A stretch of 64,000 bases of DNA from Blasia pusilla. Taxonomy: Eukaryota. Positions 2,291-56,000 of this stretch are shown here, in pieces (position 1 is the first letter of the stretch; every line of letters starts with the position of its first letter). The DNA lies in NCBI GenBank assembly GCA_050084515.1, contig CM114271.1, forward strand, positions 46,314,001-46,378,000. Reading direction: 5' to 3'. Both the position numbers and the translations under genes were made by a program. The notes under the pieces are model-generated. The model did no database searches. It was not told the origin of the DNA and worked only from the letters and a program-made list of their open reading frames with translations.

Positions 2291-2729
2291 TCCTATAACT
2301 CCTAAGGAATTGATGTATTCGGCGCCGCTCTCCTCCTGTGAACTTAAGGCGCATATCTGGCTCCCAAGTCTCCATCATGACTACGGTAGGACTCTCCGAC
2401 GCGGATATCGGTGGTTGCTATGGTGCAACCCCGTCTCGAACAACAACACTCCACCGCTCTCATGTAGCCAACTGCAAACTCTGACCTCCTCCACATGTAG
2501 TGCACGGAACCACACTCGATGCTGTGGCTATCATCTCTTGGTGTACCTGCAAAACATCCCAAGAAGTCCAAGGGTGTCTCTCTCGATCTCCCCTAGTGTG
2601 TCGATCTTCTCGGGTCTCGCCCCCAGCCACTGCCTCCACCATCTCGGTAGGCATGGGGCTCACCAACGCAACTGTTGTGATCTGTCGCGATCTCATCCGA
2701 CGCTGCTCAACCACTCCCAAGTTCAAGAT

Positions 2730-3680
2730 CCATATCAAGTAGTTCAGGTCCATTGCCTGACCCAAGACATGGCATCGTGATGCCTCTGATACTAACGGGA
2801 CTACTGTCACTCCTTGGAGAAATCCCATCGCCCGCTCTCTCTTGTCGGCATTGGGCTCCACCAACCTTTGAACGTGGTCATCCCAAACCAAGCAAGGACC
2901 GACCTCCTTGTATGCATAGGAAGCGGGAAAAATCACAAACGTGGGAAAGGCTGCCCGCGGCTTGCCTACCCTGTTGACCACAATCAATGGTGGTCGATCA
3001 TCGTGCCTCACTGCCTGTGATTGACGACTTGGATCCAGATGGAATCCACTAATAAATGGGAGGGGCGCTCCACTCTTGCATACGCCCTCCGTAACACCGC
3101 ATGGGGCACCAAGTTGGTCCACCATAGACGCGGACAATGGGCTCTATAATCTACACTCACCGCATCCAAGAACACTGCTGGGCCGATCCAGGCACGCACC
3201 TGATGAGCACTCGTCACCACCCGTGACGTGAAGTCTCCTAAGATGGGAACATTCTCCAGAATGTAGGCTGGAGAACGAGATTGGTGCTCCTACAACTGCC
3301 GTAAGACCTCAATATCTCCCAAAACAACATGGACCGAGTATCAGCCAACCCGCTGCCTCGTCCAGCACTCAATTGGCCTTGATATGGCCAACCAGAAATG
3401 ACCAAATCAATGGTCCCTACCCGCTCTAAGTCCTGAGCCCCCAACAACAAAATATCGCTCGGTAGGAAACTCTGGTATCCCTGTACCGCGGACGCAGACA
3501 ATTAGTCGGGAAAACATAGGTGTAACTACGACACATGTTGTAGTGAGATGCGCCTCGCAACATCATCACTCTCCAGATACAGGTACTATTGTACTCGCAC
3601 TCTTGCCTGCAAAACAACAACTAACCCGGTGCTTATCCCTCCAAAGAGGTCTAACACTTGAATACCCTTCTCCGAGATAC
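2730..3680 (-). pseudogene. DNMT3-like C5 cytosine methyltransferase domain in pol (copy A)
   Basis: Motif I IQVLDLFGGISTGL; motif IV IDLVISGWPYQG (catalytic Cys read as TAT at 3382-3384); motif VI ILENVP; motif VIII AHCPRLWWTNL; motifs IX/X ERAMGF...HVLGQAMDL. Split across frames. Confidence 0.9.
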
Positions 3681-3995: not shown

Positions 3996-4400
3996 CTATC
4001 CTGGTCTGTAGGACGCTGACTCTTCCCAGTAATCTAGGGAAAACCCCATCGGGTATAACACTACTCCACCAACCAAGACGTCGTAGGACTGTGCATTAGT
4101 CACTATCGCCTTGGCTCGCACCATGGACTCATCTGTAGGATGTCCCGGGAGAATCCTCACCATGACCTCCTCTCGGGTGATATACTGTGTGATACTCGCT
4201 CCACCCAAGGATGTCCGTATCCGGAATGGATAACGCTCCACATCGGCTCTCGTCAAGCCTAATCCTCTGAATGACGCTTTCCCCAACATCAAGGGTTGCG
4301 CTCTTGAATCCAACAAGACGCGATGCGGACTGAAAGCTCTACCTCCGGGACTCACCAATTGGAAGACCTCTCCTTGGTTATCCAGAAACACAATACCAGG
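3996..4400 (-). pseudogene. Retroviral-type aspartic protease (copy A)
   Basis: RVLLDSRAQPLMLG (LLDSGAQ in the copy at 31316-31525) and YDVLVG. Confidence 0.8.
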
Positions 4401-11346: not shown

Positions 11347-13063
11347 TATACACATCTCGGACATATCCATCATTCTGTAGGAACTACATCAAGAGGGGGG
11401 CTCAGACATGACATATGCCACCCTCGAGAACAACCACACATACCAACATGGTAGCTGAAGTCCTCGCAGATCCGCACAACATATACCTCAAGCATGTAGG
11501 TACCACTGTCAAGCTTGGATCTACTATCCTGTCCATATTTGAAGGGTGACATGGCGTACAATTACGCACATGATCCTTCCAAACCATATGATCCCGTCCC
11601 TCCAATATGAGGACTCTGATCGTAAATACCTCGCGCATAAGTAGGATGTGCGCCCTGCAGTGACATCTAGCGTCGTGGATATCGCATGCTGTAAATACAC
11701 GTAATCTCCAAGATGAAACCTCCTAATCCCTGGACGAAAACCTCCTCCACGAATGGTCGTGTACCTCAATGTATCCCTATGCTGAGTAATAGCTAAGTTC
11801 TCAAAGGCCATGGGCATAACTCTACGAAAAATCTCCGCCCTCTGAGAACACGCTTATACCCACACATCTGGATCATCAAGATCTAACACCTCTGCCATGT
11901 CACGTTGAATAGATGTAGGTAAATCTAGCTCTCTCCCAAAGAGAAAAAAGTAATGTAAAAATGACGCCAAGGATGGATGCTGACTGAAGGGATATCCCAT
12001 AGCCAACCATGGCAACTATAGGTCCCACTCTCTCAACTGTCCCCGGTCCAAGCCATACTTGTGCAATCCTTTCTTCATTGTCTGTACTACTCTCTCCGCT
12101 AACCCATCCACCTCAAGATGATCTCTGGATGTGGTGTGGTGATCCATCACCGCCTGGTCACATAAGGCTTGAAACTCTCCCTTGAACTTGGTACCCTGGT
12201 CAGTCAACACCTCTACCGGTGCATCAAAATCACTTAGCACACGATCTAGAAATGCATAAGCTATTCACTTGTTTTCCTTGTCCAATAGTGCCACCAACTC
12301 TATCCACTTGGAGCAATGCTCCACCATGACCAACACATATCTATAATGACGCCCCCTCAATGGCAAAGGTCCCGCAAAGTCTAAACTCCACCGATAACCT
12401 AAACCCATAATCAGAAAAGGATGTAAGTGCGGAGTGGGAGCATTGAAGGATGCTCGCACTCTATCACATACCATACATCTGGCCACAAAATCCTGTGCGC
12501 CAGTATGCATGCCGCGCCACCAATATTGAACTTGGAGTAAGATGTAACTACACTTTACTCCAAAATGTCCCAACTCCTCATGGGCATGTTATACTACATG
12601 TGTTTGCTGGGAAGGATGAGGTACCACTCGTATCCTACCATCTTCCCATACCCGCAAAATGTGAGTCCACTCCCACCTGAACCTCCTGGCTCTCTGTGGG
12701 ATCCGATCCCGCTCCCTAGCACTCACTGTGCTTGCTATGGCACTAGTACGCAAGAACTCCACAACCTCCACATCGTCATGGATATCACGACCATCTATCA
12801 TCTCCTCATTGACCTACGGATCCAAAGACTCATCATATGATCCCACCATTGGAGTCACCGCCTATGACTCACCTGCCATAGTCAACCAACAAAGATAGGG
12901 AGATGCATGCCAACTGGGCACCATCTCCTCATCACTCTCTCCATGCCATCGAGCTCCTTTGTTCTCTCTCTGACTCGGACATGGGTTACGACTTAACCCA
13001 TCCGCATCCTCGTTCAGCCGACCTGGCTTGTGAACCACGTCGAACTCATACTCTTGTAGTAAG
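11347..13063 (-). pseudogene. Integrase with C-terminal PHD finger (copy B)
   Basis: GHFG...CMVC, WSLDFAGP, VLTDQG, GLAER; then (Y)MLCGS...MLVC/GCSRGWHMSCLSPPLDVVP...WICPRC before the stop. Confidence 0.88.
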
Positions 13064-16000: not shown

Positions 16001-17888
16001 CCTAGTCTGAAAGATGTATCTTCATTGGCTATGCTGATGAACTAAGGGATATACGTGCTACTTATTATGAATCCTGATGTTGTCTTTGATGAGCTTAAGT
16101 CATGGTATGCTCCATCTGAGCCTATTCCACCTCTAAACTCGTCTATTGAGGGAGAGAATATGATTGTAATCCAAAAGATCAAGCGAAATGAAGATGGTAC
16201 AATTAACAAATACAAAGCGAGATTGGTGGCTAAGGGCTATGCACAACAATCGATTATGAGGAAACATTTAGCCATGTTGCAAAGATGGCGACTACAAGAA
16301 TAGTGGTTGTAGTTGCTGTAAGTAAGAAGTGGAGATTACATCACATAAAGGTCAAGAATGCCTTCTTGAATGGAGATCTATACGAGGAGGTATGTATGAC
16401 TCAACCACCAAGATACAAGCATCCCAAATTTCCATTTTGCGTGTGCAGGTTGAAGAAAGCTCTATACGAGCTCAAACAAGCTCTTAGAGTTTGGTATGGC
16501 AAGATTACGTATGTCCTAAAAGAGTTGGGTTTTAGGGTATGTGATTTTGATCCTCGTTATATGTCTTGAGAGGACAAGATCATATGGTTCTCATTATGTT
16601 GTATGATGACGATCTCTTGATTACTGGGAATACTGAAGAAATGGTACAACAAGTCAAGCTTAAGTTACAAGCAGAATTTGATAAGAAGGACTTGGGAGAA
16701 CTCAAGTATTTCCTTGGTATTGAGTTTATCAAGGTTGGAGAGAGTATATGGTTACTATAACAACATTATGCCCTTCATATGCTTTCAAAATTTGGTATGA
16801 TGGCTTGTAAGCCAATCTCTACACCGTTGGACCAGAGTGTGAAGCTAAGAGTGGATGAAGGAGAGTTGCTTGCAGATTCTAATTTGTACAAGTGCATGGT
16901 TGGAAGTTTGATCTATCTAACTATATCTAGACGAGATTTGAGCTATGTTGTTGGCCTAGTGAGCCAATTTATGCAAGCACCTCGAAAATCTCACGTGGAT
17001 GCTGTGAGGAGGATTATGCCATATATGAAATTCTCTATTCAATTCGGGCTTCAATTTGAAATAATACCCTAATACTTCTCTGAGTTTTCAATTATAGGGA
17101 TTCACAGATGTTGATTGGGAAGGAAGCGTATCGGATCAACACTCTACATCTGGTTATTCATTAACTTTGGGAAGCCCAACTATAAGTTGGGCTTCAAAGA
17201 AGCAACCTACAGTTGCTTTATCTTCAACAGAGGCTGAGTACAGAGGAGCAACCAATGCAGCATGTGAGGCAATGTGGCTTCATCGATTACTTGTTGAGAT
17301 TGATGTTAGTAACTTAGGATCTAGTGTAATATAAACAGAAAATATTAGTAGCATCAAGCTTGCTAAAAAGCCTATGTTTCATGCTCGTACAAAGCATGTT
17401 GAGGTGCACTATCATTTTATCAGAGAAAAAGTGCTTGCAAGAGAAATTAATCTTGTGTATATAGGTACATATCAGCAAATTGCTCACATCTTTACAAAGG
17501 CATTATCGAGAGATAAGTTTGAGATGTTTAGAAATGATTTAGCCGTTAGAGATATCGATATGAGCTTGAGGGGTAGTATTGAAGATTGAGTTACAATCAA
17601 GCTCATGAGACACCTGAACTGCTACATTTGGTACTCACACGAAGTAGGGAAGCTTAATCTTGGTTAGACACTTAAGCGCGATCATCTTAACTAGGGTTAG
17701 TTAATCACAATTAGTCTAACTCGAGACTATGGTTAAGTTTAGAGTTATGGTTTCTTTTACATATCCTATATAATTGAGAAGGGGACCAGCCTCCACTCAT
17801 TCTCTCATTGAAAATTTTGTTCTCCATGGTGGGATGTGAGTATGAAAATCGTTTTCCACCTGTTATGCTTCTTTAGCAGTTTTCCACA
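13064..17888 (+). mobile_element. Ty1/Copia LTR retrotransposon with both LTRs, degenerate
   Basis: LTRs 13064-13367 and 17577-17888; PBS TGGTATAAGAGC 13368-13379; PPT GAGGGGTAG; TSD GTAAG/ATAAG. gag, WYIDSGAS protease, WHERIGH integrase, YKARLVAKG and LYDDD RT, FHARTKHVEVHYHFIRE RNase H. Confidence 0.96.
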
Positions 17889-17950: not shown

Positions 17951-19127
17951 TGTCGCGACCCTCATGACCAAACAAGTGCCAAGCGGAACATCGGAACATT
18001 AGCGCGCTCACGCTAAGATGGTTTGCGCGTTGGAGTTGTCTCAAAGAGGAGATAAGAGACGAGACGCGAGCGAGGAGTCACGTTTCAAGTGTTATGGTTG
18101 CGACTGAGAAACCTGGACCAAACGCGAAATGAGACTTGAAAGAAGTAGAGTCTAGGAAGTGGGTTGCCAAAAGGAAGATCCGGATTTGGAACGCCACTAG
18201 CGTTTGAGAGTTTCCGACTGTATTTATGGCCATAACTTTTAGCACCAAGATGCGTTTGGAGCAAATAAGGGTGCGTTGGAAATCTTATAGAGAGACGGTC
18301 CAAACGCACTAAAGATCGTTGCAAACGCATAAGTAGCGTCCGAGATACAACCCGAAAACGACTGTAAGTAGAGTCGGGTTGAGGGCCACAATGAAGGGCC
18401 CGACCCTCTTTTCCCAAAGGGGAGGGGTTATTGGAGAACCCCAGAAGTACTAGTAAGGGGGAAGGTCTCCGAGAGTGCTTGGAACCCAAACCCCACTTTG
18501 GGCGCCACGGGGCGGCTCAAGGGCATGGAACGGAACGCGAGTTTGGGCGTTGGGTTGGAAAACCTACACCAAGTCCATTGAGGCGATTTTAGACATCCCT
18601 CTTGGATTTCACACCGCGACTCAATTACTTGGGTCTCGGTTCGAAACTCACCCGAGGACCGTTGAACTGTTGGGATCGCTAGGCGCGCAAGGGCCGTTTT
18701 AGATCCCTGGACTAACCAGGAAGTTTGTTCCAAGTCTTGAAGGACTTGCCATGTTTTGGAAGCTAGGAACTAAGGAAGGTTGAGCTTGATGAGACGCCGA
18801 GTTGAGGACTCGGTGGGTTGGGACTCCGGTTGCCCAAACCCGACTAACCAGAGTGCGTGTTTGGGAGGAGATCGGCGATGAGTTCGTGACCTACTGAACG
18901 CACGCTTCCGCAACACTAAAGATTGACGTTCAAGGAGAGTAGGGGCGCGACAAGTGGTATCAGAGCTAATCCTTGGTGAGCGAGAACTTGGGGTCGTGGG
19001 ATCAGCCGGACGCTTGGGAAATTTCAAGGTAGCGGCTAGACTCGGACGCTCGAGGAGTTCGTGACCTACTGAACGCACACTTCCGCAACACTAAAGATTG
19101 ACGTTCAAGGAGAGTAGGGGCGCGACA
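17951..19127 (+). mobile_element. Internally deleted LTR retrotransposon (one full LTR, PBS, and the tip of the second LTR)
   Basis: TGTCGCG...CGCGACA termini; perfect TCAAC TSD (17946-17950 and 19128-19132); PBS TGGTATCAGAGC 18955-18966; 18880-18952 repeated at 19055-19127. Confidence 0.93.
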
Positions 19128-19527
19128 TCAACCATTGATGATAAGTGATAAGTGTGAAAGGGTTTGTGAATAGATAGCACTTGAAATGTGGCACGGCCCA
19201 CAGTGTAGCCAAGCACTCTCCCTCGTAGGAGTTGTACTTTGCCTCTGCAATGTTGTTCGATCGGCTTGCGTAAGCCACAACAAACTCCCTCTCCTCGTCA
19301 TCTCTCTGAGTAAGCATTGCTCTTAGTTCCAACATGCTCCAATCTGTATGCAACTGGAATGGACCACCCCTAATGGGTTTTTGTAAAATGGATGAGGACG
19401 TCAACATGTCCTTGAGCTCCTAAAGTGCTCGCTCCTGATCATCTCCTCATAACCAAACTTGATCAAGTCTTGTCAATAAGGTCAAAAACTTCGCGATCAC
19501 ACTAAATGCCTTGACATATCGTCGATA
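19128..19527 (-). pseudogene. RNase H and RT C-terminus of DNMT-Gypsy copy B
   Basis: PFQLHTDWS...VVAYASRSN; continues collinearly at 17889-17950 and left of 13063. Confidence 0.9.
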
Positions 19528-22500
19528 CACTAGAAGAAATCCTTAGTTTTAGGACTAAGACATATGACTCATACAAGTCATAATTTACATTCCACGAATG
19601 GCAATGACTAACGACTACTTTAGACACAAAAGCCAAGGCATATTTGTCTCGCGACTAGGCTAACTAAGATGGTCGGCTTAGGTGGACGTTGGTACATGAC
19701 TAGAGGGTGTAGTCATGAGGCCACGACTGACACGTCACTTTGATCATATGGAATAATGGCATTTCAACGCATGATGTGGACTAATTTTTGTGATATGGCA
19801 CTGATGATGTGGAGTATGGAAGACAACTCGTGTAGTCGTATCTAGGATATCCGTGTTGTTACCACCAATGACTACCACAGTCATGTTTAGTCATGTAAAA
19901 GTACATTGTATCGAATGACAATATAACAAGTGTACCACATGGGTGAGGAAGCCACTTGGTGGTAATAGTCCTGCCTCCATCAGTCATCAAATTTTCGGAT
20001 TCAGTCATAGTTCACAACTCGTGTAGTCATATCAATTTTTTCCACTACTTTAATTCACTCACGTTGTCATGTTTAGTCACTCGCCGAGTAGTGACACATG
20101 ACTAGGGTAGAAGGCCCTACAACTAGTGTAGACATGACAATACGGTTGTACGTAGGACATAATGAGTCCTATAGTCATTGCAATAGGACTGCATGAGTCA
20201 TGTTTAGTGATTAGGTAGGAATGATACCTCACTATACCAGTGATATTGATATGACTCGTAGTGATTGTAGATTTATTTTATTTTTGGAGTTTTTGATGAG
20301 TTTATTACTATCTTTTGAAAGGTCTTTCACTTGTAATTGGATATGAATTGCTAAAATCCTTGTGTCCATTTCTGTTTGAATTGCAACCCCATATCATAGA
20401 CATCAACATATGAATGTCTTAAAAGTAAAGTCTACTATCAGAATTGATTCTCATATCCAACAAACCAGATGTCTTAAGCCAATAAAGTCACCTCAAAAGA
20501 GAAGTCTATGCACCTCAGGTAGTTTTGTGCCAAAAAGAAAATTTACTCTACTACATCACCTTCCTCATATGCATCTTTGGCCAGACCATGCTCGATCCAA
20601 GAGCATCACCAAATGTTTCTTGTGCGGGTTCATCAATCAAATTTAGCATTCATAGGGCATGTTTATGCTAAAATACTTCATTGAGATCAACCCTAACCAT
20701 GCCTGGTGGGATATCCTTGGCATGGAACTTGTCTCTTCCGCCAAAACTTTATATGAACCCTGATCCTCGATTCGTAGCTACAAGAATACAAAGAACAAGC
20801 ACTTAGTTCCAATCCAAAATTTTCTCCCATGCATGTACACCATAAATCTGAAAATAATCTGCTATGAATTACCTGTGTGAATACCATCCTCATTTCGGAA
20901 GATCATGTGAAAAGTTGATAAGTCCTAGATGACCATGTAACTGTCCACAACAATTAACATCAGTGTCGTCATTTGAACCTTGAATGGATGAGGCCATTGT
21001 AGGCGAGAGAAGTTACCTTGGTTCTTTTCTTGGATGAGTCGGATCTGATTTCACTATCCTGCTCATTTGCTACATCACAGTGGAGCCTAGACTTCTGTCT
21101 TTTGGCTGGTGATCATTTAGCTTGGTTGTCCATACTCAAGTTTTCTGCACACAATTGTCATACAATTCTGTAAGATAAAATGTCCACTATTTTTTTGATG
21201 GATAGAAAATTGTGCAAATGAACCATTCAATATGTCAAGATCCCATGCTTACGAGTATTCCTAGTTTTATCATCCCCAACACTTTCCGTGGAGCTTCTCC
21301 TCTTGGTGCTCTGTTCTGGCCCTTCTGTAAGGAATCAAAGTCGACCAAGATGAGTTAGAATATTATGTACTTAACTACAATAAGTAATTGTATTACAAGT
21401 TCCTAGGTTTGATGAAGCAAAACAAAGCTCCTTACCACTAGATTGCCTAGTTGCTATTGCCTCCTTATGTGTTGAGATCTTCCTCTTCCCTGGTTGAGCT
21501 ATTCTCGCTTCAGAAGTTGGTGGATGTTCAACAACGACTGAAAGTTACCAAACTCAAAAGAAGATATTTGAGAAGATCAACAAGTGATATTCACTAAAAA
21601 TGACAGACGAAAGGCAAGGAAGAAATAGAAAGGGAATCTTTACATTGAATGGTGAGTTACTTGATGTTCTCTTCTCTTCCCCTGTTGCGGATGATAGGGA
21701 ACAGGATGGTGGGTTAGGGGAAATCTGTTGTGGTGTAGAAGACAAGTCCTTGGAGGTGAGCTTTGACACCATTTCCATCAGTACACCTAATGCTTTGTTC
21801 TGCCATTCCATCTGCAACTTCACATCATCCAAATCTGCACTCCACTTCTTCTCCACCTCCTCTAGCTGAATAGTAACTCTGGATTCCACAATCTGCATGA
21901 ATAGACCACATATTAGGTCAGAGAATAGGAGCTATAATTCTGCTACAATACAACCAAATTCAACCTATGATACTCACTCCTTCAACCGTGACATTCAGAT
22001 GGGTTACAACAATAGTAAGCTTGTAAATATACCAGTGAACTGAATTGTGTAAAACCTAGTTGTTTGGGCAGGTCTTCTCTCTCCATTGATTCTATCCCTC
22101 TGCCCAAGGATCCTTTGGACACACGTGGCACTTGCACATGCACCTTAGAAAAACTTGAATCTTAATTTCACATGTATTTAAGGGTTGAATGCAAGCAAGG
22201 AAATGAGCCAATAATCAAAATATTATCATATTACTCATGAACATTATCATAAAAACTAGGGAATGCCAAGATGACTTACATCAAGTCCATCTAGACCTAC
22301 TCGACCGGAGTAATTTAAAGTTTGGAACTTGGCCCTTGCTCCAGCCATCTTTTCTGCCTTCGTTTTGCCCTCCTCAGAAAGCTAATAATCTACTAATCAT
22401 GCCCATGACTCCTCATCGATATCAGGGTGACACGGGACAGTGCAATGTGCCCCATGTAGTGTCCAATAGTTCTTTACATTGTGTTATTTTCTTCTTCATG

Positions 22501-24753: not shown

Positions 24754-27921
<3,168 letters not shown>

Positions 27922-28940: not shown

Positions 28941-28979
28941 TAAATGGTAAGAATTGCCATTAATCTCTCCCAAACTGAT

Positions 28980-31900
28980 CTATCCCCCAAAATGCTATCT
29001 TCTTCCTGTCCTCCAACCTGATAGGAAGTTGATGATAGCCACCACGGAGATCTAAGGTACTGAAAATCTTTGCATGCCCTACCGCATCAAAGATCTCCTC
29101 ATGAGTAGGCATGGCATATCAATCTGACCTTCTCTATTGATTGATAGGTTAGTAATCCCCACACATCCGTCTATCCATCCAATTGCCATACATATCCTTC
29201 TTTTCCAACATGACTGTGGCAGATGCATACTCCCCATGCGATAACTCCACAAGTCCTACCTCCAACAAATCCTGACTCCTGCCCCGAATCAAGGCTCGCT
29301 CCATATCAAAATACTTATAGTGTTGACGAAAGATCGGCGTATCACTAGCCAACTCAATCCGTATCCCGAGACCCTTCAGCGTACCTAAGTCTCTCATACT
29401 AAAGGCAAAACAACTTACATTCCCTCTCAAAAACCTATGAACTCACCGTCGCGCTCCTCCTATCAACTTGAGAGTTATCACAGGCTTCCAAGTCCCCATC
29501 GTAACTTCACTCGGAGAGGACGCAACCTTCGGCTTTGGTTGCTATGTAGTAACCCTGGCCATCTCCGCGAAAACCACTCCACTCTGACCTCCTACACCAT
29601 GCTCCACATCCAAAAAATGAACATATGTTGCTATGGCTGCCTTCGCATTCTATGCTCAAACGACGTCCCAGGAAGTCCATGGGTGCCTATCTCTCCTCGT
29701 CCCGCCCCCAGCCAATGCTTGTACAGACCCGGTAGGCAATGCTCCAACTCGTGGACGTGACCGCATGGATGACACTCGCATCTGTCTTTGCTCAGCCATA
29801 CCCAAGCTAACTATCCATGTGAGAAAGTTGAGGTCCATTGCCTGCCCCAATACCTATCTCCATGATACCTCAGTCATACCTGGCACCGTAGTAGAACCTG
29901 TAGCAAACCTCGTTGCACGCTCGCACTCATCTGCCATAGGCTCCTCCAATGCTCGGGTCACCTCATCCCAAATCATGCGTGGCCCTCCGTGGAAAAAGGC
30001 ATGGGATGTTGGGAAGGTGACCAACGTAGGTAAGGCTACCCTCAACTCCCCCACCCTATTGGCTATCGCCAATGATGGTCTATCATCCCGCGTCATCGGC
30101 CATCTGACATCGACGCCCTAAGCCCAAAATAGCATCCACTATGAGATGTGGTGCTCTTTGAACTCTATCGTATGCTCAACTCAGTACCACTGATGGTATC
30201 AGGTTTGTCCACCACATCCGTGGATGATGGGCACGTGAGCCAACTCTCACTGCATCTAACAACACAGCAGGTTCTAACCAAGATCTGATCTGATGCATAC
30301 TCGTCACTACACGTGCAGGAGTGTCTCCCAGCAATGGCACATTCTCCAAAATGTACATCAGGGAACATGTCTCACTCTCATGCAAGTGTTGCACTACTCG
30401 CAACGTCTCCCAAAATATCCTTGATCTGGGATCCTGCAATCCAAACTCTTGGCCAACTCTTGAATGACCATGACATGGCCATCCAAAAATCACCAAATGA
30501 ATGGTGCCAACGTTATCCAGATCGTGCACCCCCACTAAAGAGATATCGGCGGGTAGTGTATGCTGATACCCTTGTATTGGAGCTACCGGCAACAACTTAG
30601 GATACCTCTGGACCAATCTCGCCACGTGGCGTAATGATACTCGCCGCATGGTCTCATCTCTCTCTACATAAAGGTATTGATGCACACGAATACCCTCCTG
30701 CAACACCGCAGCTAATCCGGTGCTAATCCCTCCGAAGAGATCTAACACCCTAATCCCCTCCTCTAGACACTACCACACAACGGGTGTGGTATCCAATGGT
30801 GTGAACGTCTCCACTCCATGAGCCCGATCGCCACTTGAATCTTGCTACTTCGGGATAAAGGCATGACTCCATGCCTATCTCACGAGGTCGTCGGCACTCC
30901 TCTGTAGCTCTCGAGTCGTACCCCACAATGGTGAAGAGGTCTCGCCAACATGGGAAGAGACACCTCCCATGGCATGTCTCTTCATGGGACTATCCGCTAC
31001 TGGGACATCCTTTGCATGTGCGTTCCCCTCCAACAACTCTCTTGGCCAGCTAACACTACCTGTGAAAGCTGCCAATGTGGTCACAGACTCATCGCGTGGT
31101 CGAACACCATCGCGTTGCGGCAAACTCTACGGGTAACTGACTCATCCTCCCATCACGTGACCACCACCCTGGCCGATAAGCAACGGTTTCTCCCATAAGT
31201 CAAGGATGAATCCTAGAGGATATAGCTCTACACTCCCCACCAACACATCGTTTGACTCAGCTGGTGTTGTAATCGCACGTGTGCATACCATAGCACTATC
31301 CGTCGCATGCTATGGCTAGACTCTGAAAACTATCTCTTTTTTAGTCATATACTGCGTGCGTGATACGCCCCCAATCAAGGTCTGTATCTGGAAGGGAGAA
31401 GGCTCAATGTCGGCCTTCCGTAACCCCAACGCTAAACACGCCGCCTTCCCTAACATCAAGGGTTGCGCTCCTGAATCAAGTAGGATGCGATGCGGGTGGT
31501 ACATTGTCCCAGTCGGACTAACCAAGTGAAAAACTCAAGCTCAGTTATCCAATAACACCATGCCAGGTGTCACCACGGCTTGCTCTATGGTCGATCGAGA
31601 TGCCATGACTCTGTGGGGAATGTCCTGAGCACTTGCTCTGAGGGCAAGTCCACCACCTCCCCCAACTACCTTTGAATGAGAGGCACTCACCACTCCATGC
31701 TCATACAACATGGCGGCCAACCGGAACACCTTAGTTGGTCCAACTCCCAATATCACGAACTCTATGGCAGAAAATAACAGAGCCTGGCTCACCTTGGTGG
31801 CCACCTCCAACACTGTGGTCGACACTTACTCCACTCAAGCCAGTACATGAGCTGCCACTCCAACTCCTCAAAATGTCGAGGCACCTGCGTGACTAGTAGG

Positions 31901-32140
31901 CACCACTAGTCGTCGAGGCACCATCAATGGAGTGTATAATACCTCTAACAACGTGAACGATTGTGGAACCCGGGCCTGCCGCCCATCGGTTCCCTTCGAT
32001 GGGTCAATCTCGCAGCATCTCGAGTCACTACTGCAGTAGCCTCAACCTGAGCCACACTACACAAGTCATAAGGGTTTTGAAGTCTTGGCATGTCCAACAG
32101 GGATACACAATGACTCGGTACATCACAACCTTGGCACATT
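28980..32140 (-). mobile_element. DNMT-Gypsy pol fragment (RT N-terminus, DNMT, protease), probably the upstream half of copy B
   Basis: 29149-29430 RT start (RRMCGDY); 29650-30790 DNMT; 31316-31525 LLDSGAQ protease. Same strand and collinear with 10542-19527. Confidence 0.88.
29790..30790 (-). pseudogene. DNMT3-like C5 cytosine methyltransferase domain (copy B)
   Basis: A single 190-aa ORF (30176-30748) has LDLFGGISTGL, YLYVERD, GWPCHG with intact catalytic PC, ILENVP and AHHPRMWWTNL; motif X GQAMDL lies at about 29830-29850. Confidence 0.93.
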
Positions 32141-35233: not shown

Positions 35234-38127
35234 TATTGAAGATTGAGTTACAATCAAAGCTCATGAGATACCTGAACTCCTACATTTGGTACTCACACGA
35301 AGTAGGGGAGCTTAATCTTGGTTAGTCAGTTAAGCGCGATTATCTTAACTAGGGTTAGTTAATCACAATTAGTCTAACTCGACACTAAGATTAGGATTAG
35401 GGTTTCTTGTAGATATCCTATATAATTGAGAAGGGGATCAGCCTCCACTCATTCTCTCATTGCAACTTTTGTTCTCTATGGTGATGTGTGTGTGTGAGAG
35501 CCGTTTTCCACCAGTTATGCTTGTTAAGCAGTTTTCCACATGATATCAGAGGTATAGGAGAACATCACTTGAAATTCTTGGTGTTTGAGGAGAGAAGAGA
35601 GGCAAGAGAAGGAAAAAATTCAGTTTGGAAGAAGGAAGTTTTATTCAGAGCTCAGTCGGTATAGATTTCATGTGGAGCTTTGACGGTGATAAAACTTTGG
35701 AGGCATTTTTTAAGGCATTCTCGGTCAATTAAGCCGTTGGATCCATAGCGGCTAGAATGACACCATAATGTGGTTCTATTCTTATTGAAGAGCCCGTTGA
35801 GAGCTTTCCAATGCATCCAAAATTGCTCAATTCTGACTTTCAGAGCTTTTGCAGTAGCAATTTCAGTGTAGGAAAGTGCAATTAGTGAAGAAAAGTTGTG
35901 CAGTTCGCTCTCTACAGGCCAATTTCGACTAGTTCTTTCATACACTTGATCAATTTTGGAAAATTTCAGGTCAATTTCTGTGTTGGAGTAGTCTATGCTT
36001 CAATTAGAGCAGTAGAAAGCCTGAAATTATGTTTTTGTGAATGAAATCGTTCGTCATGGAGTATTCCTCCACAGTAATCACAGGCGAGAAGCTAGATAAG
36101 CAGAATCACAATGTCTTGAAGTTTCGCATGCATGAAAAAATTATGGGTCAAGAACTATGGGAGCTTGTCACAGGTGATGAGGCCAAGCCAGAGGGCGACT
36201 CAATAGACTTGAATATTCGCGCCTGGAACAAACGCGCAAGGCAAGTAATTCACTACATTTCAATAACGATCAGTTCGCCAATGATAGGTCACATTCAAGA
36301 TGTTGATATTCCGAAGGAGGCCTGGGATGCATTGGAAAAGATATTCCAGACATCTATAAAGGCCACAAAGCTTCAATTGAAACAACAATTGAACGAAGTG
36401 AGGAAAGGATCGTAGAGCATCAATGATTATATTTTGAGTATCAGACATATTGTTGATCAGTTGAATAGCATTGGAGTAACAGTAGAAGATGATGATCTTA
36501 TTCTATTCATTCTTCAAGGCCTTCCAAAGGATTACAAGCCCTTTGAGATCTCTATCTCTGTGAGAGAGAAGTATCCAACCTTTCAAGAGTTAGTACTAAT
36601 GTTAATCAGTGAAGAGATGCGCCTAGTAGGCAGCCGTAGCTCGTCTAGTTTGTAAGAGAGTGTGCTATTCGCACGTTATGGATCAAACAGATGCAGCGGT
36701 AGCTCGTCTAGTGTGCAAGAGAGTGCATTATTTGCAGGTTATGGATCAAAAAGAGGCAAGGGTCGTGGCAGAAACTTCCGTGATCGTGGTGGATATCAAG
36801 CATATGGAAGAAGAGGCACTCAATATAACATCATACAATCAACTACGAACGAGTACCAGACACAATCATAAGTTGGTGATGGTGGAAACCGTTGGGATCA
36901 ATGTCAGCAGTAGAGGGTCCGTGGATCTTGCAATTACTGTGGGATAAAGGGTCATTTTGCAAAGTTTTGCTTCAAGAAGAAGGCATATATGAGAACAGGA
37001 GCTTACAGCAACAAAACTATGTGGAGCAACAACACCAAGAGCAGTACCAAGAATAACAACATTCACAAATGGAGCATCTCTTGGTTATGACTCATCATAT
37101 GGGAGCAATGGTCAAGAAAGACTCGACAACAGATTGGTATATTAACTCTGGTGCATCAAATCAGATGACCTCACAAGCTAAATGGTTCAGTAGTTTGGAA
37201 CCGGTGAAAGATCTTGCAATTGTGCTCACAGGAGATGATACTCAACATCATATCACGCATACCGGTAAAGTTCCAATAGCATAAGATGGTCTTTGTGCTT
37301 TTGGAAATGTTCTCTATGTTCCTACCATTGTAAGAAACCTTATTTCTGTAGGACAGATAGTAGAACAAGGTTATCAAGTGAAGTTTAGCATAAATGGTTC
37401 TTTCATTGAATCAATGGATGACCAAACTACGACAGCCAAAGGAACTAGATCTGGAAGAATGTTCAAATTAGATGTTTCTATGCCAGAAATTCAAACATCA
37501 ATGTATGGTCAAATCGGCCAACAAATCACAGATCTAAATGTGTGGCATAAAAGAATTGGACATATGAATCTTCAAATATTATAGAGTCTTTCATCATCTA
37601 ATACAGTAATAGGACTCCTTAAATTAGCGAGTCCTGCTACATTAGAGGTATGTCTTGCTTGCCAATTTGGAAAACAAGCTAGATTTCCTTTTCCAAAGCA
37701 AGGTAGAAGAGCATCCAGGATATTGGAGTTGATTCACAGTGATGTATGGACAGCATCACAACATAGCCTTAGTGGTTGCCAATACTTTCTTTCATTTATT
37801 GATGACTTCTCTAGGTATATATGGATATACTTTCTGAAACCAAACTGAGAGGTATTCTTAGTGTTCCAAACATTCAGAGTTCTAGTAGAGAAGCAAACCG
37901 GAGAACACATTCTGAAATTGCATTGTGATGGAGGAGGAGAGTATCTTTCAACAGAGTTGGATGATTATTTACGTCAGAATGGCATCCAACGTCAAATGAA
38001 TTTCCGTTACATTCCAGAACAAAATGGAGTGGCTGAGAGGAAGAATCGACATATTGCTGAAGCGTCACGAGCTATGCTAAATGAGAAGAACATGCTTAAG
38101 GTCTATTGGATAGAGGTTGTAGCATGT
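35234..38127 (+). mobile_element. Second copy of the same Ty1/Copia family, 3'-truncated within integrase
   Basis: LTR 35234-35540 matches 13064-13367; PBS-like TGATATCAGAG; gag 36041-37060 with a CNYCGIKGH knuckle; WYINSGAS; QNGVAERKNR. Confidence 0.94.
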
Positions 38128-38393
38128 CCAATATTGTTATGTATTCCCTAACAATGGGTGTAGGTTCGGAAAAAGGATCTTAGAGTGTTTAGGTGGGCTA
38201 AGAGGATGGGTTATTTAATGCCCTTTTTTTCTCTTCTCATTCAAAATTTTTTCCAAAAATTTGCCGTTGGCAAAGAAAAATGAAGGAAAACAACGGTTGG
38301 AGAGTGCAGTCCAACGGAAAGTTGAATTGTTGTGTTCAGGAAGGTTGAATTGTTCCTAAAAAAGGAATCTATAGATTCTCTTTTTATTGAAAT

Positions 38394-40869: not shown

Positions 40870-42437
40870 ACAGTGAGGGAGTAGCATATGCCTTCCTAGA
40901 TCGAGTGTTGAGTCATTATGGCGCACCAACTGAGGGTGTTGACAGACCAGGATACGGAGTTTATCCGGGGAGTTTCAGGCCTTGTCTGATCAGGCGCTAA
41001 TTGATCATCGCACCACTTCGCAAGATCATCCTAAGGGGGATGGACTAGCGGAGAGGGTTACGCAAACGGTGAAGTGAGGTTTATGCAAGTATGGCTTATA
41101 TAGAGGTCACATAGATAATTGGGACCTCCAATTTCCGTGGCTGGAGATGGGATATAGATTCCTCAAGAAGATATCCTTAGCATCTTTCTCACCGTACTTG
41201 TTGCTTTATGGCCAACGGTCAGATTTACCTACAGCCATTTGTCGAGATGTTGGTGAGGTGTTGAAGCTCGATGACCTTGATGTACGGATACGAGCATGTT
41301 CTCAGAGGACTGAGTTGTTTTGAAGAGTGATGCCCATGGTGTTTGAGAACTTGGCGATTGAGCAGCTTGGGGTACGATGAGGTATGCGACTATTTAGGGA
41401 GGTGTTTACATAACGACTATCCAAAGGTTTCATCAGGGAGACTATGTCTACTTACAGCATATGGCACCCACAATGTTGGATGTGACTGCAAGGCCCACTA
41501 TCTTGAGAGTGAGTGAGGTTTTGTCATCTTGTGTTCTCTTATTGGAGGGACACGATGGTATGATTAGGAAGAACCGTGTGCGTAACTGTGCGTCATATCA
41601 CCTTCCTAACATTGAAGATACAGTTCATCCGAGCTTAGTAGGACTTCTTGTAGGCTGACATTGTCTGTTGTGCGGTTCTGCACGTGATACAACCACTATG
41701 CTAGTCTGTGATGGATATTCGAGAGGATGGCATATGGCATGTCTGACGTCACCTCTCACTAGGGCTCTTCGAGGACGATGTATGTGCCCCAAATGTATGT
41801 ATAGTAGGTAGTTATAGATTTCGACTTGTTTTTATGGCATCGATGATAAGAAGGCGAATAACAATGGGGCCACATGAGCACCCAACTTTTTTTCTCTTAG
41901 TGTTCTAGAGATGTATGTTATGAGAGGTAGGGATAGATGGCTATCCGACGTTAGAGGGACCTAACCACCAGCTAGGGAGTGATTGGAGATAATTTGGTAT
42001 TTCTCGTCTCGATGTTTGGATGTCATGAGCTATCATGGGATCGTGCATGTTTGTGTGTGTGTTAGGTGACAATAATGTATGTTGTGTAGCGATGTGTATG
42101 TGCACGATAATTGTCTCATCTTTTATGATAGAACGACGAGATCTAATAGAGAGCCTTCATAGGTTGTGAAGGAAAGCCTCAAGATGTCGAGGATGACATG
42201 TTGAGGCCACGGGTAACCTAAGAGAGTAGGTTTTCCCTTCTTTTTGGCTCATTTGGAGCCATCTAGATAAACTTACTATTTTGAGAAAATTCCCATTTTG
42301 AGTATAATTGACTTTCTATTTTTATAAATGGCCCTTGACCTCCTACAATGGGTCAAGAGCCAAGGAGGTGACCCGGAACCATGGGTTATCGTGAAGAGAG
42401 CTTGGAAAAGGGAAGGGGATATACTTCCAAGAGATAG
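40870..42437 (+). mobile_element. DNMT-Gypsy family 3' fragment (copy D): integrase core, PHD finger, 3' UTR, partial LTR
   Basis: VLTDQD...GLAER; CLLCGSARDTTTMLVCDGYSRGWHMACLTSPL...CMCPKC at 41662-41800; 42112-42437 is the reverse complement of about 8280-8562. Confidence 0.88.
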
Positions 42438-53084: not shown

Positions 53085-56000
53085 CATGGGAATCTTGGTG
53101 TATTTGCAAAACATCCTAAGAAGTCCAAGGGTGTCTCTCCCGATCATCCGTGGTGTATCAATCTCCTTAGTTCTCATCCCCAACCACTGCCTCAACCGTC
53201 TCAAGAGGCATGGGGCTCACCAACGCAGATAATAATGTAATCCTGAAACGACGTTCCTGAAAGCGCTTCAAGTCCATTGTTGACCTAAGATAGCCATGAT
53301 GCCTTTGAGAGGGAGAGCTGAAAATCTCCCATCGTCGCTCTCGCTCATCACGTTAGGCTCCACTGCTATTCCCAAAGTCCATTGCCTCCTTGAATGCAAA
53401 GGAAGCGGGAAAACTCACCAATGTGGGAAAGGCTTCTCGTGGCATGCCAATCCTATTGACCACAGCCAACGACGGTCGATCATCGTGCCTCATTTCCTGT
53501 GATTGACGGCCCGGATTCAATATGGAATCCACCAACAAATCATAGGGGCGCTCCACTCTCGCATACACCCTCCGCAATAACTCATGTGGCACCAAGTTGG
53601 TCCGAGTAAAAACGCGGGCGATGTGCTCGTGTTCCACACTCTCCGCATCCAACCACACTACTGGGTCGATCCATGCACATCTCTGTTGTGCACTCGTCAC
53701 CACGCGAGACCGTGAATCGCCCAAAATCGGCACATTCTCCATAATGTATGGTGGAGAAAGAGATTGATCCTCCTGCAAGGCTCACAAAATTTGTATAATC
53801 TCCTTAAACAACCTGGACCGAGAGTCAACTAACCCGCTACCTCGTCCAACATTCCATTGGCCCTGACACGGCCAACCAGCAATGACCAAGTCTATGGTCC
53901 CTACCCGCTCCAAGTCCTGCGCCCCCAACAATGAAATGTCCCTCGGTAGGGAACTCTGGTAACCCTGGATGGCAAACGCAAACAACAAGTTGGGAAAGCT
54001 TTGGCATAACTGCGCCACATGGTGAAGTGAAGCGCGCCTCGCAACATCATCAACCTCCACATACATGTACTGTTGCACGCCCAATCCTCCATCCAAAACA
54101 ACAGCTAAGCCAGTGTTGATCCCTCCAAAGAGATGTAGCAGACGAATACCCTCCTTTGGGATGCACCACACAATCGAGGTGGTGTCCAAAGGGGTCATAG
54201 TAGCACTCATGGCTACCTCGGGTTCCTCTGATCCGTCACGCTCTAATGCAAATATCTCACTCCATGCCGTTTGCACATGCTCGGCCGCTAAGCGTTGAAG
54301 CTCCTTTATCGAGCCCCAAAGTGGCACCTCTCCTCCACGGAATGATTTGGCTACCATGACACTCCTCTCCATACAAATATCAGGGACAGAAGTATCCTCT
54401 GAATGCACATGTCCTCAATCAAATCACTAGGCCAGTGAGGACGCTGCTAAGGCTTCCATCTCTCCTGGCCTTCGCTCGATCACTCCACCGATGAATCGAA
54501 CGGGTAATGAGCTAAGGCGCCCATCACCTGACTACCATTCTAGTCTGTAGGACGTTGACTCCTCCTAGTAATCTAGGGAAAACCCTATCGGGTACAACAC
54601 TGCTCCACCAACCAAGACGTCGTAGGACTCTTCATCAGTCACTATCACCTTGGCTCGCACCATAGACTCATATGTAGGATGTCTTGGGCAAATCCTCACC
54701 ATGACCTCCTATCGGGTGATATACTACGTGGTAATCGCTCCATCCAAGGATGTCTGTACCCGAAATGGGCAATGCTCCACATCTGCTCTCGTCAAGCCTA
54801 ATCCTCTAAATGGCTGCTTTCCCCAACATCAGCGGTTACGCTCCTGAATCCAACAAGACGCGATGCAAACTAAAAACTCTACCTCTTGGACTCACCAACT
54901 GGAAGAGCTCTCCCTCGGTTATCTAGCAACACAACACCAGGAGAAGCCATGGCACGCTCTATCGCGGGTCTAGCGGGCATCTCCACCATCCTAGCAGCCG
55001 CAACCTACCATGAATTTGACGTGGACAGCCCGAGCATAGGCTCCAAGGGTAGGTCCATCACCTCCTTTGTAATCACCTCAGAACATTATACAAGAACTCC
55101 AACTCCACGCTCTCATAGCGTAGTGGCCAACCATAAAACCTCGGCGGGCGTACCTCCCAATGTAATAATATCGAAAGTAGAAAACAAAGGAGTACGGTAC
55201 ACAATGGTGGCCGCCCCCAACATTAATGTGCTCGACACATGCCCCTCATGAGCATCAGCAATATGAGTCGTCCCACTTTCTTCTCCCATCACCTTCTGTG
55301 CCTGCACACCAACAACATCACCAACCCTATGAGAACTCTAATCATAACCCATTGATGGGGTCCTCATCGCCTTAGACAACATGAAAGATAGAGGAAGCCT
55401 GAGGTGTTTCCTGGCTTCCCCTTGGTGTGGATCCAACTCGGTGACTTCTCCACGTGTAACAATTGCGGCGGCCTCCATTTGGGGACCCCGCATATCCAAC
55501 CAAGATCCTCCATATCTTTGGCTGCTCCATATAACATTGATACCACCGATCCGACATCGGATAACCTCAGTGTCATAGCGGCAATCTGATGTTGTGGTTG
55601 CTGTATCTGAACAACCCTCCCAGCCTCACGCCCGACGTCTCCCTCAACACATCTATATGGTGGAACTCTACCTCTTCCACGGGAAACTCCACCACCCCCT
55701 CTGATAACTCCAGCTCCTTGTCCCCCAACAGGACCACCTGGTGCACGACCTCTAGGCCCACCCGGACCAGCAACTTGCTTTGGCGCCCTCTCTAGCCCTC
55801 GGTCCGGACATAACTCAAGGTGCAAGCTGAAATACCTAGCGCGTGTGTGACCGTACCTTTGATAATAGTTACATAGATAACCTCTTCATGTAGCACCATC
55901 TCCTCCTCCATGCTGAGGCACGCGTTTATGCCCCTGACGAGTGAAATCGCCTTGATGATGGGCTCCACCACATGACCTACAAGAAATCGTAGACGGCTGC

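What the first reader, a model, noticed from the sequence alone, without database searches (positions are those of the whole stretch)
29790..30790. The DNMT domain is conserved in a clearly diverged second subfamily with the catalytic PC intact
Seen: copy B differs markedly from A and C in nucleotides and linkers, yet keeps the DNMT at the same PR-DNMT-RT position. It has a 190-aa uninterrupted stretch holding FGG, GWPC, ENV and RMWWTN. Inference: an old acquisition kept by selection, not a one-off gene capture.
Basis: partly seen in the sequence, partly recalled or inferred. Interest (0 to 1): 0.8.

Follow-up and report, generated by a model that had tools for sequence, protein, structure and literature searches.

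The report
Dead methyltransferase-carrying gypsy retrotransposon copy
This is a broken, truncated copy of a plant (bryophyte-type) gypsy retrotransposon family that carries its own DNMT3-like cytosine methyltransferase, a kind already described in a green alga, here shown to be old, kept by selection, and placed just before a conserved leaky-looking stop codon.

Summary
Window 30179-30769 (minus strand) is a 197-aa open stretch with FGG, GWPC, ENV and RMWWTN, and it matches Pfam DNA_methylase and DNMT3A. Copy B is 66% identical to copy A in nucleotides, while A and C are 80-83% identical.

B itself is a dead fragment with 19 unplanned stops and one frameshift. Its long open stretch is not beyond chance.

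The inference is supported at the family level:
- Between A/C and B, the DNMT core shows pN/pS of 0.35-0.41 with synonymous sites saturated. That equals the protease, is lower than the linkers, and is higher than RT.
- DNMT and RT trees agree.
- The same gag-PR-DNMT-RT order occurs in Marchantia, Calypogeia, Sphagnum and Closterium proteins and in 70 metagenome loci.

The element matches the published Gypsy-DNMT3 kind (KnitGypsy-Dnmt3, Klebsormidium), including its odd A-coding-B-A-B repeats.

One feature I did not find in print. An in-frame TAG/TAA followed by CAA-YCN sits exactly between DNMT and RT in 50 of 54 copies, including A and B. So DNMT ends ORF1 (gag-PR-DNMT), and RT-RH-INT probably needs readthrough.

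The parts
31589..32011 (-). Copy B: remnant of the gag C-terminus / gag-PR linker. The element is truncated upstream, so no gag N-terminus or 5' repeat is present.
   Evidence: tblastn mapping to the L001 guide, positions 534-700
31196..31588 (-). Copy B: aspartic protease region (LLDSGAQPLMLG), interrupted by in-frame stops.
   Evidence: Guide positions 701-830. The ORF piece 31319-31534 aligns to P0031 residues 98-153 at E=4e-15, which lies inside that protein's Pfam Asp_protease_2 match. The piece itself gives no Pfam hit.
30764..31195 (-). Copy B: poorly conserved PR-DNMT linker, with stops at 31144, 31129, 30877, 30847 and 30772.
   Evidence: A-B amino-acid identity is 0.39.
30179..30769 (-). 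Copy B: the 197-aa open stretch, which is DNMT motifs I-VIII (FGG, GWPC[H], ENV, RMWWTN).
29797..30184 (-). Copy B: C-terminal half of the DNMT (TRD, motif IX degraded to ADECERATRF, motif X GQAMD). It is broken by TGA at 30176-30178, a frameshift near 30090-30104, and TAG at 29854-29856.
29545..29796 (-). Copy B: poorly conserved tail of ORF1 after the DNMT. The equivalent part is disordered in the model of relative L001.
29542..29544 (-). Copy B: the family-conserved in-frame TAG, in the context aca TAG caa cca, between DNMT and RT.
28942..29541 (-). Copy B: post-stop linker and N-terminal part of RT, in the same frame as the DNMT C-terminal half. Similarity ends at about 28942.
   Evidence: The RVT_1 hit is only E=0.0034, below Pfam's cut-off. 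The 135-aa match to Marchantia P0011 RT is 65% identical.
2712..3672 (-). Copy A: DNMT domain in three frames, with the catalytic Cys replaced by Tyr (GWPYQ).
2418..2420 (-). Copy A: the same conserved in-frame TAG (cca TAG caa cca).
53389..54156 (-). Copy C: DNMT domain with GWPCQ kept and motif VIII degraded. It is cut after guide position 1235.
19126..19542 (-). RNase H fragment, possibly the continuation of copy B across nested insertions. It is 73.5% identical to A in nucleotides.
   Evidence: That it belongs to B is an inference.
12220..13062 (-). RNase H-end and integrase fragment, possibly the continuation of copy B. It is 73.2% identical to A in nucleotides.
   Evidence: That it belongs to B is an inference.

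Best explanation
Window 28942-32011 (minus strand) is a dead, truncated copy (B) of a second, old sublineage of a gypsy-type retrotransposon family. The family is found in bryophytes and streptophyte algae. Its coding region reads gag(CCHC)-protease-DNMT, then an in-frame stop, then RT-RNaseH-integrase.

The DNMT is a DNMT3-type C5 cytosine methyltransferase with motifs in the normal, unpermuted order and without PWWP or ADD domains. It was acquired once, before the sublineages split. It has been co-inherited with RT under purifying selection about as strong as that on the protease.

It is the same kind of element as the published KnitGypsy-Dnmt3 of Klebsormidium nitens. Full-length relatives show the same A-coding-B-A-B repeats.

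Inferred mechanism:
- ORF1 (Gag-PR-DNMT) is the main translation product.
- A leaky UAG in a TMV-like context (UAG-CAA-YCN) lets a minority of ribosomes continue into RT-RH-INT.
- DNMT would therefore be made at Gag-like abundance, could be packaged with Gag, and could methylate the element's cDNA. Self-methylation of cDNA is the hypothesis of de Mendoza et al. 2018.

Shown here: domain identity and order, selection, tree congruence, and the conserved stop. Inferred: readthrough, packaging, and the methylation target.
For: Identity of the domain:
- Pfam PF00145.
- A profile of 26 relatives hits DNMT3A at 3e-25, DRM at 3e-15 and M.HhaI at 4e-9. The three matched blocks are collinear.
- The AlphaFold model of the unbroken DNMT ORF of relative L001 has pLDDT 83.6. 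Its top PDB matches are all DNMT3A/B/C, with TM by target 0.80-0.84.

Architecture:
- gag-PR-DNMT-RT-RH-INT is seen in Pfam scans of relatives and of L001 and in tblastn onto A, B and C.

Distribution:
- Named relatives come from Marchantia polymorpha, Calypogeia fissa, Sphagnum and Closterium.
- There are 70 metagenome loci.
- The representative library holds 1474 proteins at E<=1e-3.

Selection:
- See for the domain-by-domain figures.
- WB-L001 DNMT core pN/pS is 0.28.
- WA-L001 pN/pS is 0.19 for RT, 0.19 for RH and 0.24 for INT.

Congruence.

The stop:
- An in-frame stop at guide position 1397 is present in 44 of 52 mapped copies. The next most recurrent stop is in 17 of 70.
- 50 of 54 copies spanning the junction have TAG (38) or TAA (12) followed by CAA-YCN, in the RT frame. 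This includes A and B, which read TAG CAA CCA.
- Marchantia and other protein models end about 35 residues after the DNMT. Two models end in ...ERVASPKVFA, exactly at the stop.
- UAG-CAR-YYA is the type I leaky-stop consensus (PMC3542737, passages read).
- GAG-PROT | RT-RH-INT two-ORF layouts are known in plant elements (PMC6317226, passages).

Repeats:
- A1...B1-A2-B2 with TG..CA ends and 4-bp duplications occurs in L039, L040 and L045.
- This matches the Fig. 4c and Fig. 1e legends of PMC5890265.
Against: - No fully intact copy was seen. Every full-length copy has extra stops; the best, L001, has one. Present activity is therefore unknown.
- Synonymous sites between sublineages are saturated (pS about 0.70-0.75). 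Omega values are rough, and protein-guided alignment biases dN downward.
- Among young copies of the main metagenome group, DNMT pN/pS is about 0.6 against 0.4-0.5 for RT-RH. DNMT is somewhat more relaxed there.
- Only 7 of 50 stop contexts fit YYA fully. 42 have CCC or CCT.
- No conserved RNA structure was found downstream of the stop.
- No K. nitens sequence was retrieved in any search. Orthology with KnitGypsy-Dnmt3 rests on architecture and repeat layout only.
- The PDB has no DNMT4-type structure as far as I know. A 2026 preprint places some algal LTR-borne DNMTs next to DNMT4. The DNMT3 label is therefore not backed by a reference phylogeny here.
Confidence: 0.85

Rival explanations
1. 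RT-RH-INT is expressed by splicing, not readthrough. An intron that includes the stop, with the conserved ...TAG|CAA serving as a 3' splice site, would be removed from some transcripts, as in Ogre elements.
For: [quoted passage not shown] The sequence before the stop in the main group (ggtttttgcaTAG|caa) looks like a pyrimidine tract plus YAG. One Marchantia gene model (P0011) skips guide positions 1296-1394.
Against: No GT with a donor-like context is conserved across the deep lineages, either in the tail or elsewhere between guide positions 940 and 1396, beyond conserved Val and Gly codons. The tail before the stop stays open: it has 6.3 stops per 1000 codons, the lowest of all segments. The pyrimidine run is absent in A, B and L001.
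Confidence: 0.15
2. The DNMT was captured independently by the A/C lineage and the B lineage, or swapped in by recombination. On this view its shared position does not reflect one old acquisition.
For: A-B synonymous difference is lower in RT (pS 0.51) than in DNMT and PR (0.70-0.72). This could mean a mosaic history.
Against: The flanking linkers, the tail and the stop context are shared. DNMT and RT trees give the same deep groups, and the DNMT data do not reject the RT clade {L001, A, B} (AU p=0.77). The DNMT order is shared with Marchantia and Closterium proteins.
Confidence: 0.04
3. The DNMT domain is a neutral passenger, and the similarity between subfamilies only reflects recent common ancestry.
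For: Dead copies decay at the same rate in DNMT as elsewhere. Young-copy pN/pS is about 0.6.
Against: Between sublineages, synonymous sites are saturated while DNMT core pN is only 0.21-0.29, against 0.42-0.50 in linkers. 37% of core columns are at least 90% conserved across all lineages.
Confidence: 0.03

Closest known systems
KnitGypsy-Dnmt3 of Klebsormidium nitens (de Mendoza et al. 2018, PMC5890265). A 2026 preprint refers to it as 'streptophytes (Gypsy-DNMT3)' (10.64898/2026.05.21.726589).
   Same: Gypsy domain composition. An intronless, non-rearranged Dnmt3-type domain inside the element's coding region. Purifying selection on the DNMT. The DIRS-like A-coding-B-A-B repeat layout, seen here in relatives L039, L040 and L045.
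   Different: The hosts here are bryophyte-type (closest named proteins: Marchantia, Calypogeia, Sphagnum) and there are many copies. The paper places the DNMT 'into the Pol polyprotein ORF'. Here the DNMT lies upstream of a conserved in-frame stop, at the end of a gag-PR-DNMT ORF. No K. nitens sequence could be compared. Fig. 4c and Supplementary Fig. 13 were not seen.
SymbioDIRS-Dnmt3 of Symbiodinium (same paper)
   Same: A Dnmt3-type domain in a retrotransposon polyprotein. A-coding-B-A-B repeats. Congruent RT and DNMT trees.
   Different: Those elements have a DIRS-type RT and a tyrosine recombinase. Here there is a DDE integrase (rve and Integrase_H2C2 Pfam hits), TG..CA ends and 4-bp target duplications.
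Type I (tobamovirus-like) leaky stop UAG-CAR-YYA, and gag-stop-pol readthrough in gammaretroviruses and Tj1 of S. japonicus (PMC3542737, PMC4600332)
   Same: An in-frame UAG between an upstream structural/enzymatic ORF and the polymerase ORF, followed by CAA. Copies A, B and L001 read UAG CAA CCA, a full match.
   Different: Most copies read CAA CCC, so the last position does not fit. No downstream pseudoknot was found. Readthrough is untested. The stop follows PR-DNMT, not Gag.
[quoted passage not shown]
   Same: The coding region is split after the protease.
   Different: In Ogre the ORFs are separated by an intron of about 274 bp. Here there is a single in-frame stop, and a DNMT is added to ORF1.

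Membership tests
Gypsy-DNMT3 retrotransposons (KnitGypsy-Dnmt3 type) | Gypsy domain composition and order (GAG, PROT, RT, RH, INT) | tested here: met
   Pfam scans of relatives and of L001. tblastn onto A, B and C. B itself keeps only gag-end, PR, DNMT and the RT start.
Gypsy-DNMT3 retrotransposons (KnitGypsy-Dnmt3 type) | A non-rearranged Dnmt3-type C5-MTase inside the element's coding region | tested here: met
Gypsy-DNMT3 retrotransposons (KnitGypsy-Dnmt3 type) | DIRS-like repeat layout A-coding-B-A-B | tested here: met
   Met in relatives L039, L040 and L045, and partly in L009. Not testable on copy B (a fragment) or on A, which runs off the window.
Gypsy-DNMT3 retrotransposons (KnitGypsy-Dnmt3 type) | Sequence-level kinship with K. 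nitens copies | not tested
   No Klebsormidium protein appeared, and none could be fetched.
Canonical LTR retrotransposon (Ty3/gypsy) | Two identical long terminal repeats flanking the coding region | tested here: not met
   Relatives have A1 at the 5' end and B1-A2-B2 at the 3' end instead of plain LTRs.
Canonical LTR retrotransposon (Ty3/gypsy) | TG..CA termini, a short target-site duplication, and a polypurine tract | tested here: met
   Ends read TGTC...GACA. Duplications are CATA (L040), AAGG (L045) and AACA/AATA (L039, one mismatch). The run aggggggcg sits before B1. These were seen in relatives only.
DNMT3 class of C5 cytosine methyltransferases | Collinear motif order I, IV, VI, VIII, IX, X, with a catalytic Pro-Cys and ENV | tested here: met
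   B has PCH instead of PCQ. A has PY instead of PC.
DNMT3 class of C5 cytosine methyltransferases | Closer to DNMT3 than to other DNMT classes | tested here: inconclusive
   DNMT3A/B/C are the best matches by sequence profile and by fold, ahead of DRM, HhaI and DNMT2. No reference phylogeny was made, and no DNMT4 comparator was available.
Type I leaky stop (UAG-CAR-YYA) | UAG followed by CAR YYA | tested here: inconclusive
   38 TAG and 12 TAA among 50 stops. CAA follows in 49 of 50. YYA follows in 7 of 50 (including A, B and L001), and CCC or CCT in 42.
Type I leaky stop (UAG-CAR-YYA) | Measured readthrough | not testable with these tools
   Needs a reporter assay or ribosome profiling.

The most novel reading that the evidence does not exclude
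A bryophyte-wide gypsy lineage expresses its captured DNMT3-type methyltransferase as the C-terminal domain of ORF1 (Gag-PR-DNMT). It reaches RT-RH-INT only by reading through a conserved TMV-type leaky UAG (UAG-CAA-YCN). The methyltransferase would then be made in Gag-like excess over reverse transcriptase and packaged with Gag. This would be a recoding-controlled dose of an epigenetic enzyme in a retroelement. It would also mean the Gypsy-DNMT3 capture predates the split of streptophyte algae and land plants.
Probability: 0.6. Interest if true: 0.6.

Novelty: new member of a known kind. Interest (0 to 1): 0.45.

Why it matters
DNMT-carrying retrotransposons turn the host's main silencing mark into a tool of the transposon. 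The published plant-lineage case is one alga, treated as a lineage-specific capture.

The evidence here points to one long-lived family across liverwort- and moss-type genomes and Closterium, with sublineages old enough for synonymous saturation. The methyltransferase is kept as tightly as the protease.

The conserved stop gives a concrete, testable expression model: DNMT at Gag dose, RT at readthrough dose. It also points to tractable material (Marchantia copies) for asking what a transposon gains from methylating DNA.

Tried and rejected
- Whole genome: none is held for this window.
I used ORF pieces and tblastn instead.
- B's own PR, RT and DNMT-C pieces give no Pfam hit above cut-off. L001's protease gives none either. 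The PR label rests on the D-S-G motif and on alignment to P0031's Pfam-matched region.
- Earlier notes of this scan: nothing for this genome or this sequence.
- Sequencing runs: 8 rows, all with small shares (0.13 or less). No RNA holder is listed. Nothing was laid.
- RNA structure after the stop: only a 6-pair helix at -2.9 kcal/mol, with no support.
- Splice donors: none conserved across lineages.
- B1/B2 repeats around the A-like repeat of copy D (42110-42404): none found.
- L057 and L015 showed no direct repeats of 100 nt or more.
- A link to K. nitens by name: not found in any protein search.
- YN00 and ML dN/dS often failed or gave dS above 5 because of saturation. I report pN/pS and NG86 instead.
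- Literature: searches found no paper describing DNMT-bearing gypsy elements in bryophytes or a stop after the DNMT. The library is partial, and supplements were closed.
Full report
**What is in the window**

The window is eukaryotic and rich in transposons. It holds microsatellites, a LINE-like RT and nested elements. No whole genome is held for it.

Three minus-strand copies of one retroelement family are present:
- Copy A lies at about 194-8560 and runs off the window within the integrase.
- Copy B lies at 28942-32011.
- Copy C lies at about 53389-57600 and is rearranged.

A and C are 79.8-83.2% identical in nucleotides. A and B are 65.9% identical over 1900 nt.

**Checking the observation**

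The stop-to-stop ORF at 30176-30769 (minus strand) is 197 aa. It carries LDLFGGISTG, FGWPCHGHS, ILENVPLL and HPRMWWTN.

It matches Pfam DNA_methylase at E=2e-7. Among solved structures it matches DNMT3A best, at E=1.8e-9. There, RMWWTN aligns with RYFWGN of DNMT3A.

Three qualifications apply:
- The second half of B's DNMT is broken. There is a TGA at 30176-30178, a frameshift near 30090-30104 and a TAG at 29854-29856. Motif IX is degraded.
- B reads PCH where all 26 aligned relatives read PCQ. Copy A has lost the catalytic Cys (GWPYQ). Copy C keeps PCQ.
- B has 19 unplanned in-frame stops in 998 mapped codons. By simulation, an open run of 197 or more codons somewhere in B has P=0.28. For the DNMT I-VIII segment alone P=0.015, but that segment was picked after looking.

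Over all copies, stop density in the DNMT core is 11.9 per 1000 codons. The other segments range from 6.3 to 16.1. Most stops sit at Gln, Arg and Trp codons: 630 of 1069. This is the pattern of C-to-T decay. B is therefore a decaying fossil, and its open stretch is not evidence of selection on this copy.

**What it is**

The closest named proteins are 57-69% identical to B's ORF. They come from Marchantia polymorpha, Calypogeia fissa and Sphagnum. In total 41 proteins reached E<=1e-3 among 1489 candidates.

The representative library holds 1474 proteins at E<=1e-3 and 377 at E<=1e-10. These include Closterium and Scenedesmus 'pol' proteins.

Pfam scans of relatives show two architectures:
- zf-CCHC, Asp_protease, DNA_methylase, RVT_1, RNase H and integrase in that order. 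This is seen in P0084, P0064, Closterium P0060 and Marchantia P0011.
- RT-RH-DNMT-INT-PHD, a second layout seen in other proteins (P0054, P0068).

A profile of 26 relatives hits DNMT3A at 3e-25, DRM at 3e-15, M.HhaI at 4e-9 and DNMT2 at 1e-6. The three matched blocks are collinear.

I modelled the unbroken 438-aa DNMT ORF of metagenome relative L001. The model has pLDDT 83.6, with residues 359-438 disordered. Its best PDB matches are all DNMT3A/B/C methyltransferase domains, with TM by target 0.80-0.84.

No PWWP or ADD domain was found.

I call the domain DNMT3-type with one reserve. I made no reference phylogeny. A 2026 preprint places some algal LTR-borne DNMTs next to DNMT4 (passages).

**Selection**

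I fetched 70 related metagenome loci. I then mapped every copy codon by codon onto the near-intact L001 coding region. L001 was read with X at its two stops.

| Comparison | Segment | pN/pS or value |
|---|---|---|
| A-B | DNMT I-VIII (189 codons, aa identity 0.59, pN 0.247, pS 0.699) | 0.35 (bootstrap 0.28-0.43); NG86 omega about 0.15 |
| A-B | DNMT TRD-X | 0.42 |
| A-B | PR | 0.35 |
| A-B | RT | 0.27 |
| A-B | PR-DNMT linker | 0.56 |
| A-B | tail | 0.68 |
| C-B | DNMT core | 0.41 |
| B-L001 | DNMT core | 0.28 |

An earlier run with Marchantia guides agrees.

Synonymous sites are saturated, so omega is approximate. Even so, nonsynonymous change in the DNMT core is about half that of the linkers. 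It equals that of the protease.

Column conservation points the same way:
- 71 of 193 DNMT-core columns are at least 90% conserved across copies.
- The figure is 21-25 of 149 in the linker and 73-74 of 159 in RT.
- B keeps 65 of the 71 conserved core columns.

Among 779 pairs of young copies in the main metagenome group, pN/pS is about 0.6 for DNMT and 0.4-0.5 for RT-RH. This is expected when most differences are post-insertion decay. It also shows DNMT is somewhat less constrained than RT.

**Tree congruence**

Of 73 records, 42 covered at least 80% of both DNMT (guide 980-1300) and the RT part that B retains (guide 1441-1599). The other 31, copy C among them, were left out.

Both trees give the same deep groups: {L053-55}, {L001, A, B} and a main group of 36. 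In the DNMT tree, A, (L001, B) and the main group are unresolved relative to one another.

The DNMT data do not reject the RT clade {L001, A, B} (AU p=0.77). Pairwise distances correlate with r=0.79, and 0 of 999 permutations reached that value. Within the main group alone, r=0.48 with 0 of 999.

The DNMT has therefore travelled with the RT. This argues against separate captures.

One oddity remains. A-B synonymous difference is lower in RT (0.51) than in DNMT and PR (about 0.70). It may reflect recombination or nucleotide-level constraint. I did not resolve it.

**A conserved stop between DNMT and RT**

L001 is one reading frame from gag to integrase with only two stops. One of them, at guide position 1397, recurs in 44 of 52 mapped copies. 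The next most recurrent stop is in 17 of 70.

I scanned the 54 copies that span the junction:
- 50 have an in-frame stop in the RT frame followed by CAA (49 of 50; TAA in one copy) and YCN. The stop is TAG in 38 and TAA in 12.
- The contexts are CAACCC in 42, CAACCA in 4, CAATCA in 3 and CAACCT in 1.
- Of the four without it, two (L033, L060) read TAC at that site.

The stop is present in every deep lineage. This includes window copy A (2418-2420, cca TAG caa cca) and copy B (29542-29544, aca TAG caa cca).

Protein models support the same ORF end:
- Models from Marchantia (P0002, P0005, P0007, P0008, P0028) and several from other sources end about 35 residues after the last aligned DNMT residue.
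- Two models end in ...ERVASPKVFA, exactly the codons before the stop.

Downstream, RT-RH-INT is under strong constraint. A-L001 pN/pS is 0.19 for RT, 0.19 for RH and 0.24 for INT. No ATG is conserved across lineages after the stop. So the stop must be bypassed in active elements.

UAG-CAR-YYA is the tobamovirus-type leaky context (PMC3542737, passages). A, B and L001 fit it fully. Most copies miss the last A.

I found no conserved downstream RNA structure. I also found no conserved splice donor.

Readthrough is my preferred reading, at about 0.6-0.65. Ogre-like splicing is the main rival (PMC6317226, passages). A gag-stop-pol layout that is needed for activity is known for Tj1 (PMC4600332, passages).

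**Ends of the element**

Full-length relatives L039, L040 and L045 begin with a repeat A1 of about 330 nt, which starts TGTCATGACC. They end with B1 (115 nt), then 2-3 nt, then A2, then B2, which ends CGCACGACA. L009 shows the same layout but is cut.

Further details:
- Similarity between copies starts exactly at A1 and stops exactly at B2.
- A purine run, aggggggcg, precedes B1.
- The flanks show 4-bp duplications: CATA, AAGG, and AACA/AATA with one mismatch.

This is the 'A-coding region-B-A-B' layout that de Mendoza et al. describe for SymbioDIRS-Dnmt3. They state it is shared by KnitGypsy-Dnmt3 (PMC5890265, figure legends read as passages).

**Comparison with what is known**

DNMT3 domains inside retrotransposons are published for dinoflagellates and for the charophyte K. 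nitens. For K. nitens, Ka/Ks is below 0.2, and a retrotransposon DNMT was shown to methylate CG de novo (PMC5890265, abstract and passages). Later papers repeat this for 'streptophytes' (passages).

The present family matches that kind in domain composition, DNMT type, selection and repeat layout. I could not compare sequences with K. nitens. I also could not see Fig. 4c or Supplementary Fig. 13.

I did not find two things in the searched library (PMC5890265 does not mention Marchantia). One is the wide occurrence in bryophyte-type genomes. The other is the conserved stop that puts DNMT at the end of a gag-PR-DNMT ORF.

**Verdict**

The element is a new member of a known kind. The expression model adds something testable. 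Interest is moderate.

Noticed in passing
L039:2724-12043; L040:2851-12060; L045:1679-10805: Full-length relatives have split direct repeats (A1 ... B1-A2-B2) instead of plain LTRs. They still have TG..CA ends, 4-bp target duplications and a DDE integrase. The B1|A2 junction looks like the 3' end joined to the 5' end with 2-3 nt between them.
   Followed up: partly
window 28942-29409 vs 1506-2285 (RT of B and A): A-B synonymous difference is clearly lower in RT (pS 0.51) than in PR and DNMT (0.70-0.72). This could mean recombination between sublineages or a nucleotide-level constraint in RT.
   Followed up: no
window 3440-3470 (copy A, motif IV): Copy A has the catalytic Cys replaced by Tyr (GWPYQGQ). 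Copy C keeps GWPCQ but has a degraded motif VIII.
   Followed up: yes
window 19126-19542 and 12220-13062 (minus strand): RNase H and integrase fragments about 73% identical to A. They may be the rest of copy B, separated by nested insertions. One such insertion is an element with 89%-identical repeats at 13062-13367 and 17575-17888, related to 35234-38139.
   Followed up: partly
window 40872-42404 (plus strand): A fourth fragment of the family (copy D): integrase followed by a segment (42110-42404) similar to the 5' terminal repeat of A (8325-8562) and C (63331-63625). No B1/B2 repeat was found around it.
   Followed up: partly
window 56199-56803 (minus strand): In copy C, an RT/RNase H piece lies between gag and the gag-PR linker, out of order. 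C also lacks the DNMT end, the tail and the stop.
   Followed up: no
window 25577-27414 (minus strand) and 24780-24950: A non-LTR-type RT (Pfam RVT_1, E=4.6e-11) with broken neighbouring ORFs, next to a long (GA)n microsatellite.
   Followed up: no
L001:321-6809: This is the best-preserved relative. It is one frame from gag to integrase, with a single unplanned stop (3192-3194) besides the conserved one (4509-4511).
   Followed up: yes
proteins P0054, P0068, P0229 (Monoraphidium), P0086 (Scenedesmus): A second architecture, RT-RH-DNMT-INT-PHD, carries a related DNMT domain in chlorophyte and unnamed metagenome proteins. Its relation to the gag-PR-DNMT form is open.
   Followed up: no
all mapped copies: Unplanned stops recur at the same Gln, Arg and Trp codons in unrelated copies (for example guide 1110 in 17 of 70). 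This is parallel C-to-T decay, as expected for methylated DNA.
   Followed up: partly
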